This document shows positions 1,307-41,348 of a stretch of DNA of 64,000 nt, piece by piece. Under the pieces are notes generated by a model. The model saw nothing but the letters and a program-made list of their open reading frames with translations, was not told the origin of the DNA and did not search any database. The stretch is taken from NCBI GenBank assembly GCA_035318745.1, contig DATHEA010000005.1, positions 88,090 to 152,089 of the forward strand, written 5' to 3'. The translations under genes and the position numbers were made by a program. Origin of the DNA: Solirubrobacterales bacterium. Lineage in GTDB: Bacteria; Actinomycetota; Thermoleophilia; Solirubrobacterales; 70-9. Every line of letters starts with the position of its first letter. The stretch's first letter is position 1.

Positions 1307-1320
1307 GGCGTCATCGTAGA

Positions 1321-1423
1321 AAGGCCACCGGGTGTCCCCCCGGCGGAACCCGCGTCGAATCGCTCGCGAGGGCGCAGATCCCGCCGGCTCACAAGTTCCG
1401 GCGGGGGGACACCCGGTGGCCTT
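1321..1423 (+). repeat. Family-1 structured palindromic intergenic element, copy B
   Basis: aaggccaccgggtgtcccccc (1321-1341) is the exact reverse complement of 1403-1423. Core is ggaacccgcg...gccggctcacaagttcc. Confidence 0.85.
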
Positions 1424-1458
1424 CCCGGGAGCACCTGCGCTCCTCCGCTAGCTGACGA

Positions 1459-8636: not shown

Positions 8637-8642
8637 GCTCGA

Positions 8643-9000
8643 TGGAGGCGGCCGGAATCGAACCGGCGTGTCTGGCCGTAGCGCGAAGGCTTCTACAGGT
8701 TTAGCCGGCGCTTGATTCTCGTCTCCCGGGGTCCGCGCCGGCGGGCACTGCGGGAGATAAAGCCCTCTGAAATGTCCCCTGGCGGACGGGGCGATCCGCC
8801 CGGGTAAGCCCGCAATTGAAGCCGGTGCCCCCCTCCGCGGGCGGGAGAGGGCCGACTCTCACTCACTTAGATCTAACTAAGCAGCGAGGGCGAACTCATG
8901 GTCCGCACGTATTGGTTGGTGCCGGGGTTTAACGAGGCCTCCGGCAACCTCGACCTGCAACCGTTCGCACGGATCGACCAGATCGAAGCCTGTCGCCCCC
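8643..9000 (-). ncRNA. ssrA: tmRNA (transfer-messenger RNA)
   Basis: The minus strand starts GGGGGCGACAGGCTTCGATCTGGTCGATCCGTGCGAACGG and ends GCCGGTTCGATTCCGGCCGCCTCCA (T-arm plus acceptor). The acceptor stem 5-prime GGGGGCG / 3-prime CGCCTCC contains the G3:U alanine identity pair. Internal tag frame GCG GAC CAT GAG TTC GCC CTC GCT GCT TAG (8906-8877) encodes ADHEFALAA*. The 3-prime CCA is not genome-encoded. Confidence 0.93.
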
Positions 9001-9045
9001 GTGCTATGTGACATCGATTGTACGGTGCCGGGTAGGGATGCCCAA

Positions 9046-10422
9046 ATGAGCAAGAAAGAATTCGACGCGATCGTGATCGGCGCCGGCGCGCCGGGCGAGG
9101 TCTGCGCGGGGCGCCTTGCCGACGGCGGGCTCTCGGTGGCGATCGTCGAGAGCCACCTGGTCGGCGGCGAGTGCTCCTATTACGCCTGCATGCCGTCGAA
9201 GGCTCTACTTCGCCCTGGCGAGCTGCTGGCTGAGGTACGCCGTGTACCTGGAATCGCCGCCGCGGTCAGCGGTGACCTCGACCCACAGGCGGTCCTCGAT
9301 CGCCGTGACGAGGTGATCCACGACCTCGACGACTCCGGCCAGTTGCCTTGGCTGGAGGAACGCGACATCGAGCTGTTTCGCGGCGAGGGACGGCTCGACG
9401 GCGAGCGGCAGGTCGTCGTCGGTGAGAAGACGCTGATCGCTCGCCAGGCCGTGGTGGTAGCGACCGGTAGCGGCGCGGCGATGCCGCCCAGCGACGGCCT
9501 CGACTCGGTTCGAACCTGGAACAACCGCGATGCGACGACCTCCAAACTGGTGCCGGAGAGCATGATCGTCCTCGGCGGCGGCCCGGTCGGCTCGGAGCTC
9601 GCTCAAGCATGGTCCACGCTCGGGACCACCGTCACCCTGGTCGAGGGCGAGGATCATCTGCTCCCGCGCGAGGAGCCGTTCGCCGGCGAGCAGGTCGCTG
9701 CCTCGCTGGGGAATTCTTACGGGATCGACGTGCGGACGGGGGTGCTCGCCGAGCGGGTCTCCTCCGGTGGCGCCGGGGTCGTGGTCGAGCTGAACGACGG
9801 CAGCCGCGCAGAGGCGGAGGAGCTCCTGGTAGCGATCGGCCGCGTCCCCCGCACCAAGAAGATCGGCCTCGACTCGGTCGGGGTCGAGCCAGGCGAGCAC
9901 GGCTTCCTCCCAACCGACGAGCGACTTCGGGTGAGAGGCCGCGAGTGGCTCTACGCCGTCGGCGACGTCAACGGTCGCGCCCTCTTCACCCACATGGGCA
10001 AGTACCAAGCCTGGGTTGCGGCCGAGAACGTGCTCGGCCGCAGGGTCGAGTCGATCGCCGAAGACATCGGCTCGCCGCGCGTCACCTTCACCGATCCCCA
10101 GGTCGCGGCCATCGGCAAGACGCTTGCCCAGGCCGAAGAGACAGGAATCGATGCCCGCGGGGTCGACGTCCCCACCGACGGCACGGCCGGTGCCAGCTTC
10201 CAAGGGAAGGAAACGGGAGGAACCTCCCGCCTCGTCATCGACCAAAGCAAGCAGATGATCGTCGGCGCCACCTTCACCGGCTTCGAGACCGCCGACTTTC
10301 TCCACGCAGCAACGATCGCAATCGTGGGAGAAGTGCCCCTCGATCGACTACGCCACGCGGTAGCTGCCTACCCCACGCGCAGCGAGATCTGGCTCAAGCT
10401 GATCGAGCAGTACGAACGCTGA
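9046..10422 (+). CDS. FAD-dependent pyridine nucleotide-disulfide oxidoreductase (class I, lipoamide dehydrogenase/mycothione reductase-like)
   Basis: FAD fold FDAIVIGAGAPGEVCAG, redox dithiol GGECSYYACMPSK, NAD fold VLGGGPVGSELAQ and a C-terminal dimerisation domain. Start set to the ATG at 9046 (MSKKEF); the track ORF from 9001 abuts ssrA. Confidence 0.8.
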   Translation: MSKKEFDAIVIGAGAPGEVCAGRLADGGLSVAIVESHLVGGECSYYACMPSKALLRPGELLAEVRRVPGIAAAVSGDLDPQAVLDRRDEVIHDLDDSGQLPWLEERDIELFRGEGRLDGERQVVVGEKTLIARQAVVVATGSGAAMPPSDGLDSVRTWNNRDATTSKLVPESMIVLGGGPVGSELAQAWSTLGTTVTLVEGEDHLLPREEPFAGEQVAASLGNSYGIDVRTGVLAERVSSGGAGVVVELNDGSRAEAEELLVAIGRVPRTKKIGLDSVGVEPGEHGFLPTDERLRVRGREWLYAVGDVNGRALFTHMGKYQAWVAAENVLGRRVESIAEDIGSPRVTFTDPQVAAIGKTLAQAEETGIDARGVDVPTDGTAGASFQGKETGGTSRLVIDQSKQMIVGATFTGFETADFLHAATIAIVGEVPLDRLRHAVAAYPTRSEIWLKLIEQYER

Positions 10423-10430
10423 ACCGGGCT

Positions 10431-10572
10431 GGGCGACCGCGGTGGTCCTCCGGGGGTGCCTCGCGAAGCGGCGCACCGGCGAGTGATTCTTGCCGCGAAG
10501 CGGCTCCAACATAGTGAGCGGAGCGTCAGCGAAGCGAACCCCGGCACCCACGGGGGACCACCGCGGTCGCCC
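10431..10572 (+). repeat. Family-3 structured palindromic intergenic element, copy 1
   Basis: 30-nt arms 10431-10460 and 10543-10572 are complementary at 27 of 30 positions. The interior has three exact GCGAAGC heptamers (10463-69, 10495-501, 10529-35) and the motif gtgatt-hairpin-tccaacatagt, shared with 40781-40932. Confidence 0.8.
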
Positions 10573-10581
10573 GAACGCTTG

Positions 10582-12189
10582 CTAAACGCGAGAACGCCGC
10601 TTCAGGTCTTCGGCAAACTCGCGCGGCAGGCCGGGAATCTCGTCCAGTTCGTCGATCGACTGAAAACGACCGACTCGCTCGCGGTGCGCAAGCAGGCGAG
10701 TCGCCTGGGTCACGGAGAGCCCCTGGGCCCTGAGCTGCTCGAAGCTGATGTTGTTGAGTTCGATCGTCTCCCCGGTCTGCGCCGCAGAGGGCGGTGCGGG
10801 CTGGGGCGGCATCGGTGGACCCGGCTGCGGCTCGGGCTGTGGTGGCGCCGGCGGCGGGCCGGGCTGGTCCGGCGCGGGCGGCGGAGGCTCAGGAGTCGGT
10901 GGTTGAGGCGTGGGCGCCGGAGGCGGTTGCGGGGTGTCCAACTGCGGTGAGCGCTCCGGCGGAGGTTCTGGAGGCAGGGGCTGGGGATTCAGCGAGGCGG
11001 CTTCTCCACCATGCACGGAACCGAGCACGGCCCGCTCCGCTGCTTCGGCCCGGCGCTCCGCCTCGCGGGCGCGCTCCTCGGCCTGGGCGACGCTTTCCTC
11101 GATCTCACGCAGGCGCTGCCGGCGCTCCTCCTCCTGCGATTTCAGCTGCGCAAGGCGCTCGGCCTCCGCTGCACGCCGTTCCGCGGCTTTGGTGCGCTCC
11201 TCGATCTGGCGCAGGCGCTCTTGCGCTTCGGCGAGCGAGCGCTCCTGCGCTTCGCGTCCCTGCTGCAGACGCTGTTCGGCCGTCTGAAGGTCGGGCGCCG
11301 GCGCGGCAGGGGGCGGGGGCGCAGCCATGCTCTGCGTCGTCTGCCCGGTCTCGGCTTGCGCCCGCCGTGCCTCGGCCTCACGCTGAAGTCGCTCCGCCTC
11401 CTCGATGCGCCGATCCGCCTCGGAGCGGATCCGCTCCTCCTCGCGCTGGATTTCGGCGACCTTGTCGTGAACGCGCTGTTCGGCCACGGCCGGGTCGTAT
11501 CCCCCTGGCGTGAGCGGCGGTGCGCCCGGTGGCGCCTGCGAAGGCACGGGGGGCGGCGACTGTGGCTGCGGTACCGCGGCAGGCGGAGGTACAGGCGGAG
11601 GTACGGCTTGCACGGCGGGTGGTGGAACGACCTGAGGCTGCGGCTGGGCAAACGGCTGGGCCGGCGGAGCCGGCGGCGGTTGAGCGGTAGCTGCGCTCTC
11701 CTGCTCGTACCGCGCCCGCTCCTGCGCGGCGCGAGCCGCGGCGAGCTCCCGCTCGGCCTTCGCCGCCTCTTTCTTGCCGCGACGCCCGGTGCGGCTGCCC
11801 CGACCCGGCTTGCCGCGACGCCCGGCTCGTTTCCTCGCCCGCTCTTCGCGGCGCCGCTTCGCTTCTTCCTGGCTGCGCTTGCGATGCTCGGCGCGAGCGG
11901 AACGTTGCTGCAGGCGAGCCTGCTTGCGCTTCTCCTTGGCGCTCAGCGGCTTGCCCGAGGGCGGCGGTGGCGCCGCGGTAGGGGGAGCGCCCGTTTGTCC
12001 CGCCTGCGGTTGGGCCGACTGTGGCGCCAAAGGCGGCGGTGGGGGCGATGCCGGCTTGCCGGCATCGCTTTTCTTATGCTGGTCCTTGCTGCGCCGCTGG
12101 ACGATGCTGATCACGAGCAGCAAGAGCAGGATCGCCACCACCAGCCCGGCGACGAAGTATTGGACGTTGTCGCTCACGAAGTCAGCCAT
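10582..12189 (-). CDS. membrane-anchored Pro/Ala-rich coiled-coil protein with C-terminal helix-hairpin-helix (ComEA-like) domain
   Basis: N-terminal TM helix FVAGLVVAILLLLLVISIV. Basic and proline-rich low-complexity tracts. Charged heptad-like repeats (AERRAAEAERLAQ, EERAREAERRAEAAERA). C-terminus LNNISFEQLRAQGLSVTQATRLLAHRERVGRFQSIDELDEIPGL resembles an HhH DNA-binding module. Confidence 0.6.
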   Translation of the reverse strand: MADFVSDNVQYFVAGLVVAILLLLLVISIVQRRSKDQHKKSDAGKPASPPPPPLAPQSAQPQAGQTGAPPTAAPPPPSGKPLSAKEKRKQARLQQRSARAEHRKRSQEEAKRRREERARKRAGRRGKPGRGSRTGRRGKKEAAKAERELAAARAAQERARYEQESAATAQPPPAPPAQPFAQPQPQVVPPPAVQAVPPPVPPPAAVPQPQSPPPVPSQAPPGAPPLTPGGYDPAVAEQRVHDKVAEIQREEERIRSEADRRIEEAERLQREAEARRAQAETGQTTQSMAAPPPPAAPAPDLQTAEQRLQQGREAQERSLAEAQERLRQIEERTKAAERRAAEAERLAQLKSQEEERRQRLREIEESVAQAEERAREAERRAEAAERAVLGSVHGGEAASLNPQPLPPEPPPERSPQLDTPQPPPAPTPQPPTPEPPPPAPDQPGPPPAPPQPEPQPGPPMPPQPAPPSAAQTGETIELNNISFEQLRAQGLSVTQATRLLAHRERVGRFQSIDELDEIPGLPREFAEDLKRRSRV

Positions 12190-21993: not shown

Positions 21994-21998
21994 AGCAG

Positions 21999-22100
21999 GG
22001 AGGACGGGTGCCCCTCCGCCGGAACCCGCCGCCGACAGCTTGCCCAGGGCGCCCTCGCCTTGCGGGCTCACAAGTTCCGTCGGAGGGGCACCCGTCCTCC
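21999..22100 (+). repeat. Family-1 structured palindromic intergenic element, copy C
   Basis: ggaggacgggtgcccctccg (21999-22018) is the exact reverse complement of 22081-22100. Core is ggaacccgcc...gcgggctcacaagttcc. It fills the gap between the convergent fpg stop (21991-93) and nadC stop (22101-03). Confidence 0.88.
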
Positions 22101-22943
22101 TCATGCCGGTTCGATCAGCATGCTGAAGTCAAGCGTCGGCGCGGAGTGCGTCAGCGCCCCAACCGAGATGTAGTCGACGCCCGTTTCTGCAATCCCACGC
22201 ACGGTCTCCAAGCTGACGCCGCCGGAGGCCTCCAGCGGCGGGCCGTTGGCGCTGCGCTCGGCATCGCGCAGGGCGACCGCTTCGCGCAGCTCCTCCAGGG
22301 TCATGTTGTCGAGCAGCAGTCGGTCGGCGCCGGTGCCCAACGCGTAGCCAGACTCCAGGACGGTGCGGCACTCGACCTCGACCGGCAGATCCGGACGCGC
22401 GTTGCGCGCGGCGTAGACGGCCTTGGCGAGACTTCCCGCCAGGGCGATGTGGTTCTCCTTGATCAGGATCGCGTCGTAGAGCCCCATGCGGTGGTTCTTG
22501 CCCCCACCGGCGGCCACCGCCGCCTTCTCCAGAGCCCGCAGCCCCGGGGTCGTCTTGCGCGTGTCGAGGATGACGGCACCGGTTCCGGCGACCGCCTCGA
22601 CGTAACGCGCCGTAAGGGTGGCGATGCCAGAGAGGTGGCCGAGGAAGTTGAGTGCAGTCCGCTCGGCGGCAAGCAAGCCTACGGCTGGACCGCTGGCGAG
22701 CAACACCTCAGCTGGCACGTCCTCACGCCACTGCCCCTCGACAACCAGATTGTCGATGTCCTCCACCCCGCACTGGCGCATCGTCTCGGCAACCACAGCA
22801 AGACCGAAGACAACGCCAGTCTCCTTCTGCACGATCCGTGCTCTACCACGAGCACCCTGAGGGACAGTCGCCTCCGAAGTCACATCCCCAGCTCCAAGAT
22901 CCTCGGCGAGCGTGCGGGCAACCGTCTCCTCTAGATCAACCAT
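22101..22943 (-). CDS. nadC: nicotinate-nucleotide pyrophosphorylase (carboxylating)
   Basis: From the ATG at 22943, MVDLEETVARTLAEDLGAGDVTSEA...ERTALNFLGHLSGIAT...DTRKTTPGLR...LDNM...SGG is canonical NadC. The track ORF start at 23045 reads through repeat copy D. Confidence 0.9.
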   Translation of the reverse strand: MVDLEETVARTLAEDLGAGDVTSEATVPQGARGRARIVQKETGVVFGLAVVAETMRQCGVEDIDNLVVEGQWREDVPAEVLLASGPAVGLLAAERTALNFLGHLSGIATLTARYVEAVAGTGAVILDTRKTTPGLRALEKAAVAAGGGKNHRMGLYDAILIKENHIALAGSLAKAVYAARNARPDLPVEVECRTVLESGYALGTGADRLLLDNMTLEELREAVALRDAERSANGPPLEASGGVSLETVRGIAETGVDYISVGALTHSAPTLDFSMLIEPA

Positions 22944-40708: not shown

Positions 40709-40780
40709 GGTCCCTTCCCCGAACTTGCACTTACCCGCCTATACGGCGGGAAACTGAAAGTTCGAGCGGCAGAGCGAGGT

Positions 40781-40932
40781 GAGAGGCGACGATGTCCCGA
40801 GGCGGGAATGTGGCCGAAGGCCGCGATATGCAATCTCGTGATTGCGCGGCCGTAGGCCGCGCTCAAACTTAGTCGCAGAGGCCCGCAGGGCCGAGCGATG
40901 TCAATTCCCGCCTCGGGACATCGGCGCCTCTC
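40781..40932 (+). repeat. Family-3 structured palindromic intergenic element, copy 2
   Basis: 29-nt arms 40781-40809 and 40904-40932 are complementary at 28 of 29 positions. The interior has three C-GNA-G triloop hairpins: gtggcc-gaa-ggccgc (40810-24), gcgcggcc-gta-ggccgcgc (40844-62) and ggccc-gca-gggcc (40880-92). The gtgatt / tcaaacttagt motifs are shared with 10431-10572. Confidence 0.82.
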
Positions 40933-40934
40933 AT

Positions 40935-41348
40935 TCATCCCTGGGCGATTGCAAGAAACGCTTCGGCCCGATCGCGATCTTTCTGCGCCCGGGTCTGCTC
41001 GCCGCTCTTGTCCTCCGCCTCAGCGAAACGCTGTTCGGCGTCGGCGAGCTGCTCTTTGAGCGTGGCGGCGTCGAGGTCCTCCGGCGCGATCGCCTCCTCG
41101 ACCAGCAAGCGGGCGTGGTTGCCGAAGACCTGCAGCCAACCGTGTGCCTGCGCGAAGCGGCGGGGCTCGCCGTCGCCCTCAAAGAGGCGAAGCTCGGTCG
41201 GTCGCAGGGCGGCCAGAAGCGGCGCGTGGTTGGCGAGGATGCCGATTTCGCCCCCCGCGGTGCGGGTCGAGACCTGGCTCACCTCGCCGTTGAAGACCTC
41301 ACCCTCGGGAGTGAGGATCTCGACCTCGAATTTGCTCTCGCCGGCCAA
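40935..41348 (-). CDS. atpC: F1 ATP synthase subunit epsilon
   Basis: 137 aa at the operon end, with a beta-sandwich plus helical hairpin pattern (EVEILTPEGEVFNGEV...). Confidence 0.88.
   Translation of the reverse strand: MAGESKFEVEILTPEGEVFNGEVSQVSTRTAGGEIGILANHAPLLAALRPTELRLFEGDGEPRRFAQAHGWLQVFGNHARLLVEEAIAPEDLDAATLKEQLADAEQRFAEAEDKSGEQTRAQKDRDRAEAFLAIAQG

What the first reader, a model, noticed from the sequence alone, without database searches (positions are those of the whole stretch)
10431..10572. Family-3 element with three exact GCGAAGC heptamers inside a 30-bp stem
This 142-nt element sits between two convergent stop codons. Its arms are complementary at 27 of 30 positions. The 82-nt interior carries GCGAAGC three times (10463, 10495, 10529), spaced 32 and 34 nt apart. 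d(GCGAAGC) is the textbook extraordinarily stable DNA mini-hairpin (a GAA triloop closed by C:G). The second family member (40781-40932) has three hairpins at the equivalent places with different stems and GAA, GTA and GCA loops. So the C-GNA-G triloop, not the stem sequence, is what is conserved. The special stability of GNA triloops is a DNA property rather than an RNA one. That hints at function in single-stranded DNA (replication/priming signal, HUH-endonuclease or ssDNA-transposase substrate) rather than only in RNA.
Basis: partly seen in the sequence, partly recalled or inferred. Interest (0 to 1): 0.65.

Follow-up and report, generated by a model that had tools for sequence, protein, structure and literature searches.

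The report
Clamp hairpin repeat with GNA triloops
This is one copy of an apparently undescribed palindromic repeat of soil Solirubrobacterales: a 30-bp clamp stem encloses three tiny hairpins whose loops almost always read G-N-A closed by C:G, and its evolution suggests the fold is kept up in DNA, while its function is unproven.

Summary
Window 10431-10572 is a 142-nt inverted repeat (28/30 arm positions paired) between two convergent stop codons, with GCGAAGC at 10463, 10495 and 10529.

It is a divergent member of a real family. I collected 47 distinct relatives of the second copy (40780-40933) and three orthologues of this copy.

- Stems covary massively: 47 of 56 pairs change on both sides.
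- G·U intermediates are almost absent.
- The arms diverge as fast as synonymous sites yet stay paired.
- Palindromised and collapsed derivatives exist.
- The same intergenic sites carry Family 3, Family 1, Family 2, short palindromes or nothing in different genomes.

My best reading is a REP/MITE-like palindromic repeat whose fold is maintained, and probably propagated, as a DNA hairpin, and which also forms the 3' stem-loop of the upstream mRNA. The single-stranded-DNA idea is partly supported. No Rfam family matched and a literature search found nothing on it.

The parts
10431..10460 (+). 5' arm of the clamp stem (GGGCGACCGCGGTGGTCCTCCGGGGGTGCC)
   Evidence: (I8): 30 nt, 93% complementary to 10543-10572. 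The arms covary in orthologues L208-L210.
10462..10470 (+). Mini-hairpin 1, CGC-GAA-GCG (heptamer GCGAAGC at 10463-10469). It corresponds to hairpin C of the main subfamily: the 13-mer TCGCGAAGCGGCG is shared.
   Evidence: the 13-mer recurs in about 30 e2-type copies. It is invariant in e1-like contigs of three soil metagenomes.
10483..10488 (+). Linker GTGATT, shared with copy 2
   Evidence: The linker varies among e1-like copies.
10492..10504 (+). Mini-hairpin 2, GCCGC-GAA-GCGGC (heptamer at 10495-10501)
   Evidence: A compensatory change, 10493 C>T with 10503 G>A, occurs in the same metagenome contigs.
10504..10515 (+). Linker CTCCAACATAGT, shared with copy 2 (CTCAAACTTAGT)
10529..10535 (+). 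Mini-hairpin 3, GC-GAA-GC, with only a 2-bp stem
   Evidence: It is kept in L208 and L209 and reads GCGGAGC in L210.
10543..10572 (+). 3' arm of the clamp stem
   Evidence: I8.
40780..40933 (+). Second Family-3 copy (main subfamily), 2 nt after the atpC stop. The covariance model was built on its reverse complement.
   Evidence: I5; 170.6 bits.
9001..10422 (+). Flanking gene: pyridine-nucleotide-disulphide oxidoreductase. Its stop is 8 nt before the element.
10582..12189 (-). Flanking gene: HHH_3-domain protein. Its stop is 9 nt from the element. Its mRNA would carry the element with UNC loops.

Best explanation
**What it is.** The element is one copy of a lineage-restricted palindromic repeat, seen so far only in Solirubrobacterales-type soil contigs. 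It occurs at moderate copy number.

**Architecture.**
- It has a 29-34-bp GC-rich clamp stem.
- The stem encloses three short palindromes, each centred on three bases that read G-N-A on one strand and are closed by C:G.
- This copy belongs to a divergent subfamily in which all three palindromes are reduced to GCGAAGC.

**Proposed mechanism (inferred).**
- When the DNA is single-stranded (replication, repair or transfer), the GNA mini-hairpins nucleate and the clamp zips up into a cloverleaf or 'rabbit-ear' fold.
- Copying within the strand across this fold (quasipalindrome template switching) keeps the two arms strictly Watson-Crick complementary while their sequence drifts at a neutral rate.
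- The same process produces collapsed or fully palindromised derivatives.
- The folded DNA is probably also the form in which the element is gained and lost behind stop codons, in the manner of REP/REPIN elements.
- Because it sits 0-9 nt behind stop codons it is also transcribed, and it gives the upstream mRNA a very stable 3' stem-loop.

**Shown versus inferred.**
- Shown: the family exists, its stems covary, the loop and closing-pair rule holds, wobble pairs are lacking, the arms evolve fast, sites turn over, and different families occupy the same sites.
- Inferred: folding in single-stranded DNA, template-switch maintenance, mobility through a folded strand, and the mRNA 3'-end effect.
For: **Family and covariation**
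- The covariance model found 47 distinct full copies at 79-182 bits, and this copy at 41.9 bits, E 2e-6.
- 93.4% of cells are paired, against 74.8% in shuffles and 33-46% when the partners are slid. 47 of 56 pairs change on both sides, in 424 cells.

**Loops**
- 133/139 loops are 3 nt long, 117/139 read TNC (GNA on the other strand), and 136/139 are closed by C:G.
- The background rate is 7/164 in the window and 4.8% in shuffles.

**No wobble signature**
- One-sided (G·U) changes are near zero.
- Mismatches are A·C 47 versus G·T 28, and 30 versus 25 in the copies that lie in the transcribed orientation.

**Rate**
- The arms differ at 0.30-0.38 per site, against 0.17-0.34 at atpC third codon positions, yet stay about 95% paired.

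**DNA-level derivatives at the atpC site**
- L180 and L145/L173 are palindromised.
- L196 has the interior deleted.
- L141, L157 and L167 carry short perfect palindromes equal to the arm ends.

**Turnover**
- The e1 site is filled in L208-L210, empty in L206/L207 (leaving GAGCGcCGCTC, the base of the stem), and holds Family 2 in L213/L214.
- The atpC site holds Family 3, Family 1 or nothing.

**Copy number**
- At least 6 other contigs with an e1-like interior lie at the genome's own depth in the source metagenome.
- A 31-nt e2 block occurs in at least 4 other contigs.

**Chemistry and precedents**
- PMC13037366 (mini-hairpin review), PMC3201870 (closing-pair dependence), PMC5449611 (GNA-loop palindromes in Streptomyces telomere overhangs) and PMC7202029 (quasipalindrome template switching).

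**RNA**
- A 172-nt metatranscriptome contig spans 10434-10606, the element plus 34 nt of the minus-strand gene's 3' end.
- A contig from a relative with an empty site runs straight through the convergent junction.
Against: - No transposase, HUH or RAYT gene lies next to any copy, and none was listed among the genes called in ten fetched loci. The whole genome could not be searched.
- No target-site duplication was seen.
- Copy number is modest, and copies are syntenic over AtpC identities of 75-98%. The interior block CAGATTGCATATCGC is nearly invariant. These features look more like a conserved functional element than a selfish one.
- First copies after atpC all have the same orientation, and both window copies put UNC, not GNA, in the nearest upstream gene's mRNA.
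- Hairpin B has non-GNA loops in 13/47 copies.
- The mismatch counts are not phylogenetically independent.
- The RNA evidence is two low-depth contigs with no strand information.
Confidence: 0.5

Rival explanations
1. It is a purely RNA-level 3'-UTR element. The clamp stem acts as a U-tract-less ('I-shaped') terminator, a block to exonucleases or an RNase III site. The conserved interior binds an RNA-binding protein. The GNA pattern is incidental, because the mRNA strand reads UNC.
For: - Copies start 0-9 nt after stop codons.
- All first copies after atpC, and this copy relative to the HHH gene, share one orientation.
- Different hairpin families occupy the same post-stop site, as if any strong hairpin will do.
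- An RNA contig ends at the element's outer edge, and a relative with an empty site reads through.
- The interior 15-mer is nearly invariant.
Against: - G·U pairs are about 1% of cells and no commoner than A·C, even in the transcribed orientation.
- Second copies are inverted and lie upstream of the next gene, not at a 3' end.
- 96% of loops are triloops, which is unusual for RNA hairpins.
- A 2-bp mini-hairpin would not be stable as RNA (PMC13037366).
- No U-run follows the stem.
- No Rfam family matches.
Confidence: 0.22
2. It is a dedicated single-stranded-DNA signal with a cellular job: a priming or replication-restart site, or the recognition site of a structure-specific recombinase that swaps hairpin modules and lets small gene cassettes insert between paired copies.
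For: - GNA mini-hairpins mark the phage G4 origin, RSF1010 ssiA, N4 promoters and Streptomyces telomere overhangs (PMC13037366, PMC5449611).
- Inverted pairs of copies flank variable cargo: a DUF4062 protein in L132 and an ImmA/IrrE peptidase in L149.
- The interior is conserved in sequence.
Against: - No enzyme was identified.
- The orientation of the GNA strand relative to replication is unknown, and GC skew in the window is too weak to call.
- Copies are lost without visible consequence in close relatives.
- Cargo is present in only 4 of about 14 paired loci.
Confidence: 0.15
3. It is a neutral, decaying MITE relic. The structure is only the terminal inverted repeats of a dead transposon, and the heptamers are inherited sequence without meaning.
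For: - Presence and absence vary between relatives, and truncated or degenerate copies exist (L191, L176, L127).
- There is no nearby transposase.
Against: - A relic would lose complementarity as it diverges. Here the arms diverge by 30-38% and remain 95% paired.
- The loop rule and closing pair are kept across 11-18 different stems.
- No target-site duplication is present.
Confidence: 0.08

Closest known systems
REP / BIME / REPIN elements with RAYT (Y1 HUH) transposases of Enterobacteria and Pseudomonas
   Same: - They are intergenic palindromic repeats placed just behind stop codons and between convergent genes.
- They are co-transcribed as mRNA 3' hairpins.
- They are handled as single-stranded DNA hairpins.
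- They occur as inverted doublets.
- Their structure is kept while their sequence drifts.
   Different: - This element is 142-160 nt, against about 35 nt for a REP.
- It has a 30-bp clamp plus three internal triloop hairpins.
- It has no conserved 5' GTAG tetranucleotide.
- Copy number appears to be tens at most (my rough reading of the contig depths), not hundreds.
- No RAYT gene was found in the DNA held, and the genome could not be searched.
Transcribed MITE-like hairpin repeats (Neisseria Correia/NEMIS, Yersinia ERIC, Stenotrophomonas SMAG). This comparison is from my own knowledge.
   Same: - They are 100-160 bp long with long terminal inverted repeats.
- They are intergenic and fold into long RNA hairpins that affect mRNA processing and stability.
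- Their presence or absence varies between strains.
   Different: - Those elements have sequence-conserved terminal repeats and target-site duplications (TA for Correia).
- Here the arms vary freely with compensation and no duplication is seen.
- The interior carries a structured, conserved triloop module.
Streptomyces telomere 3'-overhang palindromes (PMC5449611, PMC4513846)
   Same: - Both are from Actinomycetota.
- Both have several tightly packed palindromes whose 3-nt loops read GNA with a sheared G:A pair.
- Both fold into 'rabbit ears' or 'clover leaf' shapes in single-stranded DNA.
   Different: - The telomere palindromes lie at the ends of linear replicons and serve Tap/Tpg end-patching.
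- This element is internal, multi-copy and sits behind genes.
- No sequence similarity was tested.
Single-stranded-DNA initiation signals with mini-hairpins (phage G4 origin, RSF1010 ssiA CCGAAGG, phage N4 early promoters; PMC13037366)
   Same: The same C-GNA-G mini-hairpin motif, including exact GCGAAGC-type heptamers, serves as the recognisable structure in single-stranded DNA.
   Different: - Those are single sites on phage or plasmid DNA with a known primase or RNA polymerase partner.
- Here the motif occurs in a chromosomal repeat family with no known partner.
Integron attC sites
   Same: - Structure is conserved rather than sequence.
- They fold as single-stranded hairpins.
- They lie behind ORFs, and cargo genes lie between some pairs of copies.
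   Different: - There are no RYYYAAC/GTTRRRY ends.
- There are no arrays in direct orientation.
- No intI gene is nearby.
- The pairs here are inverted.

Membership tests
REP/REPIN (RAYT-associated) | Short (about 20-40 nt) imperfect palindrome with a conserved 5' GT(A/G)G tetranucleotide | tested here: not met
   The element is 142-160 nt with a 29-34-bp clamp. The arm ends are GRGGRGG-like and variable, with no conserved GTAG.
REP/REPIN (RAYT-associated) | A cognate RAYT (Y1 HUH) gene in the genome, usually flanked by REPs | not testable with these tools
No Y1_Tnp was listed among the genes called in ten fetched loci.
REP/REPIN (RAYT-associated) | Extragenic, near gene 3' ends, often as inverted doublets | tested here: met
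   Copies start 0-9 nt after stop codons. 13 loci carry an inverted pair: 9 with spacers of 30-136 nt and 4 with cargo between.
MITE | Terminal inverted repeats conserved in sequence and matching an autonomous IS | tested here: inconclusive
   Inverted arms are present with a loose consensus (..CCGGTG.CCCTCCGCGGGAAT), but they vary with compensation at 23 of 26 pairs of the main clamp helix. No autonomous partner is known.
MITE | Target-site duplication flanking the element | tested here: not met
   No direct repeats flank 50 examined copies. Comparing empty and filled sites shows the joint at the centre of a short palindrome instead.
Curated RNA families (Rfam 15) | A match to any covariance model | tested here: not met
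   The only hit in the window is tmRNA at 8640-9000. Two copy-bearing loci gave no hit at E up to 1.
Structured cis-acting RNA (generic) | Compensatory covariation with frequent G·U intermediates on the transcribed strand | tested here: not met
   Covariation is strong, but G·U is about 1% of cells and not commoner than A·C. In transcribed-orientation copies the counts are A·C 30 and G·T 25.
DNA mini-hairpin motif d(C-GNA-G) | A 3-nt loop reading G-N-A, closed by 5'-C...G-3' | tested here: met
DNA mini-hairpin motif d(C-GNA-G) | Actually folds as single-stranded DNA in the cell | not testable with these tools
   This needs melting and nuclease mapping or in vivo probing.
Integron attC | RYYYAAC...GTTRRRY core sites, arrays of cassettes, and a neighbouring intI | tested here: not met
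   No such ends are present. Copies are single or in inverted pairs, and no integrase appears in the called genes.

The most novel reading that the evidence does not exclude
Family 3 (perhaps with Families 1 and 2, which replace it at the same sites) could be a new class of chromosomal element that works as folded single-stranded DNA. Its GNA-triloop cloverleaf would be read by a structure-specific enzyme not yet identified. That enzyme would install, exchange or remove hairpin modules directly behind stop codons, and would allow small cargo genes to enter between paired copies. This would be a chromosomal counterpart of Streptomyces telomere overhangs, parvoviral hairpin ends or attC sites.
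Probability: 0.2. Interest if true: 0.8.

Novelty: new variant of a known kind. Interest (0 to 1): 0.55.

Why it matters
- If the fold is really maintained in DNA, the family is a natural example of long palindromes that evolve at a neutral rate yet stay perfectly paired. That would separate 'covariation' from 'RNA structure under selection', which matters for every covariation-based search for non-coding RNA.
- It would extend the biology of GNA mini-hairpins from phage origins and Streptomyces telomeres to a repeat family inside chromosomes.
- It shows that, in an abundant but little-studied soil lineage, gene 3' ends carry interchangeable hairpin modules from several families.
- It gives concrete, testable sequences for terminator, mRNA-stability and single-stranded-DNA recognition assays.

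Tried and rejected
I therefore could not do a whole-genome census, an HUH/RAYT search or a replication-strand test.
- My one genome-contig scan was wasted on too loose a pattern, GTGATT..TCMAACWTAG. It returned 120 chance hits in AT-rich genomes and no family member.

**Searches with no result**
- A viral-contig scan for the conserved block found nothing.
- Rfam gave no match at gathering threshold or at E up to 1.
- A blastn search with the e1 interior against 685 kb of held loci found no further e1-type copy, only the shared 13-mer.
- A literature search for Solirubrobacterales hairpin repeats found nothing.

**Readings considered and dropped**
- Hammerhead-like or other ribozyme core: the A-B linker is not conserved.
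- Promoter in the conserved 15-mer: no acceptable -10/-35 pair on either strand.
- Small ORF: the indels are not in multiples of three.
- Outer arms as pre-existing target hairpins: stem length is constant at 29-34 bp and the arms share a consensus.
- attC: the core sites are absent.

**Uninformative**
- GC skew in the window is too weak and noisy to assign leading and lagging strands.

Full report
**1. The observation**

The sequence is as described. Arms 10431-10460 and 10543-10572 are 30 nt long and 93% complementary (28/30), with 82 nt between them (I8). GCGAAGC occurs at 10463, 10495 and 10529 on the + strand.

The heptamer is not rare here: there are 41 copies on both strands of the window against 31 expected. 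Three copies on one strand within 82 nt is still unlikely. About 0.024 are expected per such interval, so roughly 0.01 such triplets in the whole window.

The element lies 8 nt behind the stop of a pyridine-nucleotide-disulphide oxidoreductase gene (9001-10422, +). It lies 9 nt behind the stop of an HHH_3-domain protein gene (10582-12189, -).

It folds far better than shuffled sequence as DNA (z -6.3) and as RNA on either strand (z -7.3 and -5.0). The nearest-neighbour minimum-energy folds keep hairpin 2, but they do not draw the 2-3-bp mini-hairpins 1 and 3.

The second copy (40780-40933) has 29/30 arms and hairpins with GAA, GTA and GCA loops. The two copies share the linkers GTGATT and CTCMAACWTAGT, which occur nowhere else in the window.

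**2. Getting relatives**

I therefore reached relatives through the flanking proteins.

- AtpC (40935-41348, -) has many 75-98% identical relatives in soil Solirubrobacterales contigs. I fetched 5 loci by exact look-up and 80 by a metagenome scan.
- The atpC-M20 peptidase spacer in L122-L125 holds the same element, with many compensated changes in the arms and a different third hairpin (GCGC-GAA-GCGC instead of GGCCC-GCA-GGGCC).
- A covariance model built from four of these copies found 47 distinct full-length copies at 79-182 bits in 685 kb. It also found this finding's element at 41.9 bits (E 2e-6), in the matching orientation.

So the two window copies do belong to one family. Copy 1 is a divergent subfamily: it lacks the near-invariant block CAGATTGCATATCGC of the main subfamily, but it shares the 13-mer TCGCGAAGCGGCG, the layout and the linkers.

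Rfam has nothing like it. A literature search for hairpin repeats in Solirubrobacterales found nothing.

**3. Anatomy of the family**

- a variable purine-rich arm ending in ..CCGGTG.CCCTCCGCGGGAAT;
- TGA.GTCGC;
- hairpin A;
- a variable linker that often pairs with the linker after hairpin B (TGATC/GATCA, GGATC/GATCC, GTT/AAC, CTC/GAG);
- hairpin B (typically GCGCGGCC-TNC-GGCCGCGC);
- CAGATTGCATATCGC, which contains a 3-bp hairpin GAT-TGCAT-ATC;
- hairpin C (CGC-TTC-GCG or GGCC-TTC-GGCC);
- ACATTCCC and the 3' arm.

The clamp is always 29-34 bp long, and no target-site duplication flanks it.

**4. Covariation**

On the 47 copies, 93.4% of cells form standard pairs. This compares with 74.8% after shuffling and 33-46% when the partners are slid. 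47 of 56 pairs show changes on both sides, in 424 cells, and no shuffle reaches any measure.

The alignment was fitted to the model, which inflates these figures somewhat. The effect is nevertheless far beyond the controls, and it is visible in plain MAFFT alignments.

**5. The triloop rule**

|---|---|---|---|
| A | 44/47 | 41/47 | 11 |
| B | 45/47 | 34/47 | 18 |
| C | 44/45 | 42/45 | 6 |

- In total, 133/139 loops are 3 nt long and 136/139 are closed by 5'-C...G-3'.
- Hairpin B's other loops are mainly TAT (8), with TGG and TGT.
- The loop's first base on the atpC strand is T in nearly all copies.
- Among all perfect palindromes in the window with at least 5 bp and a 3-nt centre, only 7 of 164 obey the rule, and 3 of those lie in Family 3. 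Shuffles give 4.8%.
- Orthologues of copy 1 keep GCGAAGC three times (L208, L209) or twice plus GCGGAGC (L210).
- Loose ends of e1-like metagenome contigs show other third hairpins that obey the same rule: CCCACC-GAA-GGTGGG, GATCCGCC-GCA-GGCGGATC and GCC-GCA-GGC.

**6. RNA or DNA?**

Several results point away from a classical RNA structure.

- (a) One-sided changes (G·U) are almost absent. Counted directly, mismatches are A·C 47 and G·T 28 in about 2,600 cells. They are 30 versus 25 in the copies that lie in the transcribed orientation behind atpC. An RNA stem under selection should tolerate G·U and purge A·C.
- (b) The arms differ at 0.30-0.38 per site between orthologous copies whose atpC third positions differ at 0.17-0.34. 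They therefore change at least as fast as synonymous sites yet stay about 95% paired. Independent compensatory substitution under selection should be much slower than neutral. A copying mechanism within the hairpin fits better. Quasipalindrome template switching is an established mechanism of that kind (PMC7202029).
- (c) Products of such processes are visible at the atpC site. L180 and L145/L173 have half of the interior mirrored into a perfect long hairpin. L196 keeps the full clamp with the interior deleted. L141, L157 and L167 keep only short perfect palindromes equal to the outer ends of the arms.
- (d) Three-base loops and C:G closure are the optimum for DNA hairpins (PMC3201870). The RNA versions are much less stable (PMC13037366). 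The third mini-hairpin of this copy has only two base pairs.
- (e) Second copies are inverted relative to the first, so there is no single transcribed orientation.

Other results favour an RNA role.

- The position is 0-9 nt behind stop codons.
- All first copies share one orientation.
- In both window copies the nearest upstream gene's mRNA carries UNC loops rather than GNA.
- A soil metatranscriptome holds a 172-nt contig, 97.7% identical, that covers 10434-10606. That is the element plus 34 nt of the minus-strand gene's end.
- A relative with an empty site gives a contig that runs through the convergent junction.
- These are single low-depth contigs without strand information, and DNA carry-over is possible.

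**7. Turnover and interchangeability**

*The e1 site*:

- L208-L210 carry the e1-type element.
- L206 and L207 have a 14-nt spacer containing GAGCGcCGCTC, which equals the base of the L208 stem.
- L211 has a small hairpin.
- In L212 the two genes overlap.
- L213 and L214 carry a Family-2 element instead.

*The atpC site*:

- Some genomes have Family 3.
- Others have Family 1 (L121, L137, L139, L186, L152, L136).
- Others have short palindromes.
- L159 and L162 have nothing.

The model also scores Family-1 copies at 36-48 bits through their similar arms, so the families share a chassis.

Thirteen loci have an inverted pair of copies behind atpC. Nine pairs are 30-136 nt apart, and a fourteenth locus (L151) has two copies in direct orientation. 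Four inverted pairs enclose cargo: a DUF4062 protein plus a small ORF in L132, an ImmA/IrrE peptidase in L149, and unassigned ORFs in L142 and L175.

**8. Copy number**

In the metagenome that holds the window (X1, genome depth about 10-13), at least six other contigs carry an e1-like interior at depths 10.4-13.7, with different arms. A 31-nt block of copy 2 (40806-40836) lies in at least four other contigs.

The family is therefore dispersed at moderate copy number in this genome. No other copy occurs within ±10 kb of the two sites in any fetched genome.

**9. Verdict**

The best reading (about 0.5) is a REP/MITE-like palindromic repeat with three properties.

- Its cloverleaf fold forms in single-stranded DNA.
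- It is kept complementary there by template switching.
- It is probably gained and lost in that form.

It also serves as, or is at least tolerated as, the 3' stem-loop of the upstream mRNA.

The rivals are a purely RNA-level 3'-UTR element (0.22), a dedicated single-stranded-DNA signal or recombination site (0.15) and a neutral relic (0.08).

It is not a member of REP, of MITEs in the strict sense, of attC or of any Rfam family. Defining features of each were tested and not met.

It resembles the GNA-loop palindromes of Streptomyces telomere overhangs (PMC5449611) and the mini-hairpin signals of single-stranded phage and plasmid origins (PMC13037366). The resemblance is in motif and fold style, not in context.

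The family appears undescribed. I class it as a new variant of a known kind.

Noticed in passing
L213:4377-4489 and L214:4371-4485 (orthologous to window 10423-10581): The same convergent spacer that holds this Family-3 copy holds a Family-2 element (GAGCCC..GGTAGGG..CTTTTTCG..CGAAAAAG..) in two other genomes. Hairpin families are interchangeable at one site.
   Followed up: partly
L121:10415-10547, also L137, L139, L186, L152 and L136 (orthologous to window 40709-40934): A Family-1 hairpin sits directly after the atpC stop where other genomes have Family 3. The Family-3 model also scores Family-1 copies (window 1318-1425 at 45 bits, window 21994-22104 at 36 bits) through their similar arms, so the families share an arm chassis.
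   Followed up: partly
L132:777-2667, L149:10414-11437, L142:619-1571, L175:1772-2350: Variable cargo lies between atpC and an inverted Family-3 copy (a full inverted pair in L132, L142 and L175; in L149 only the inverted copy is left). It includes a DUF4062 (TIR-like) protein plus a small ORF, an ImmA/IrrE M78 peptidase, and unassigned small ORFs. A shared motif GTTGAAATACCGTC lies about 40 nt before the second copy in three of these loci.
   Followed up: partly
L180:500-660, L145:613-690, L173, L196:607-700, L141, L157, L167: Derivatives of the element show hairpin-templated rearrangement. These are mirrored half-interiors (including a mirrored GAGATTGCAT block), a full clamp with the interior deleted, and short perfect palindromes equal to the arm ends.
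   Followed up: yes
L122:13541-16297: In one relative the UDP-glucose/GDP-mannose dehydrogenase gene downstream of the atp operon carries an intein with a LAGLIDADG endonuclease domain (918 aa, against 437 aa elsewhere).
   Followed up: no
window 8640-9000 (-): A tmRNA gene (133.6 bits) abuts the start of the oxidoreductase gene. smpB and an RNase R-like gene (PF00773 RNB) lie just beyond the HHH gene in the orthologous loci, so the element sits inside a trans-translation gene neighbourhood.
   Followed up: no
window 40709-40779 and L122:10570-10643: A second, unrelated small hairpin (CCCGCC-GTATA-GGCGGG in the window, GGACGATTGTG.CCCC...GGGG.CACAATCGTCC in relatives) follows the Family-3 copy before the M20 peptidase start.
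   Followed up: no
window 10434-10606 (runs X19, X26): A soil metatranscriptome contig of 172 nt matches the element plus 34 nt of the HHH gene's end. In another run of the same study, a contig from a relative lacking the element crosses the convergent junction.
   Followed up: partly
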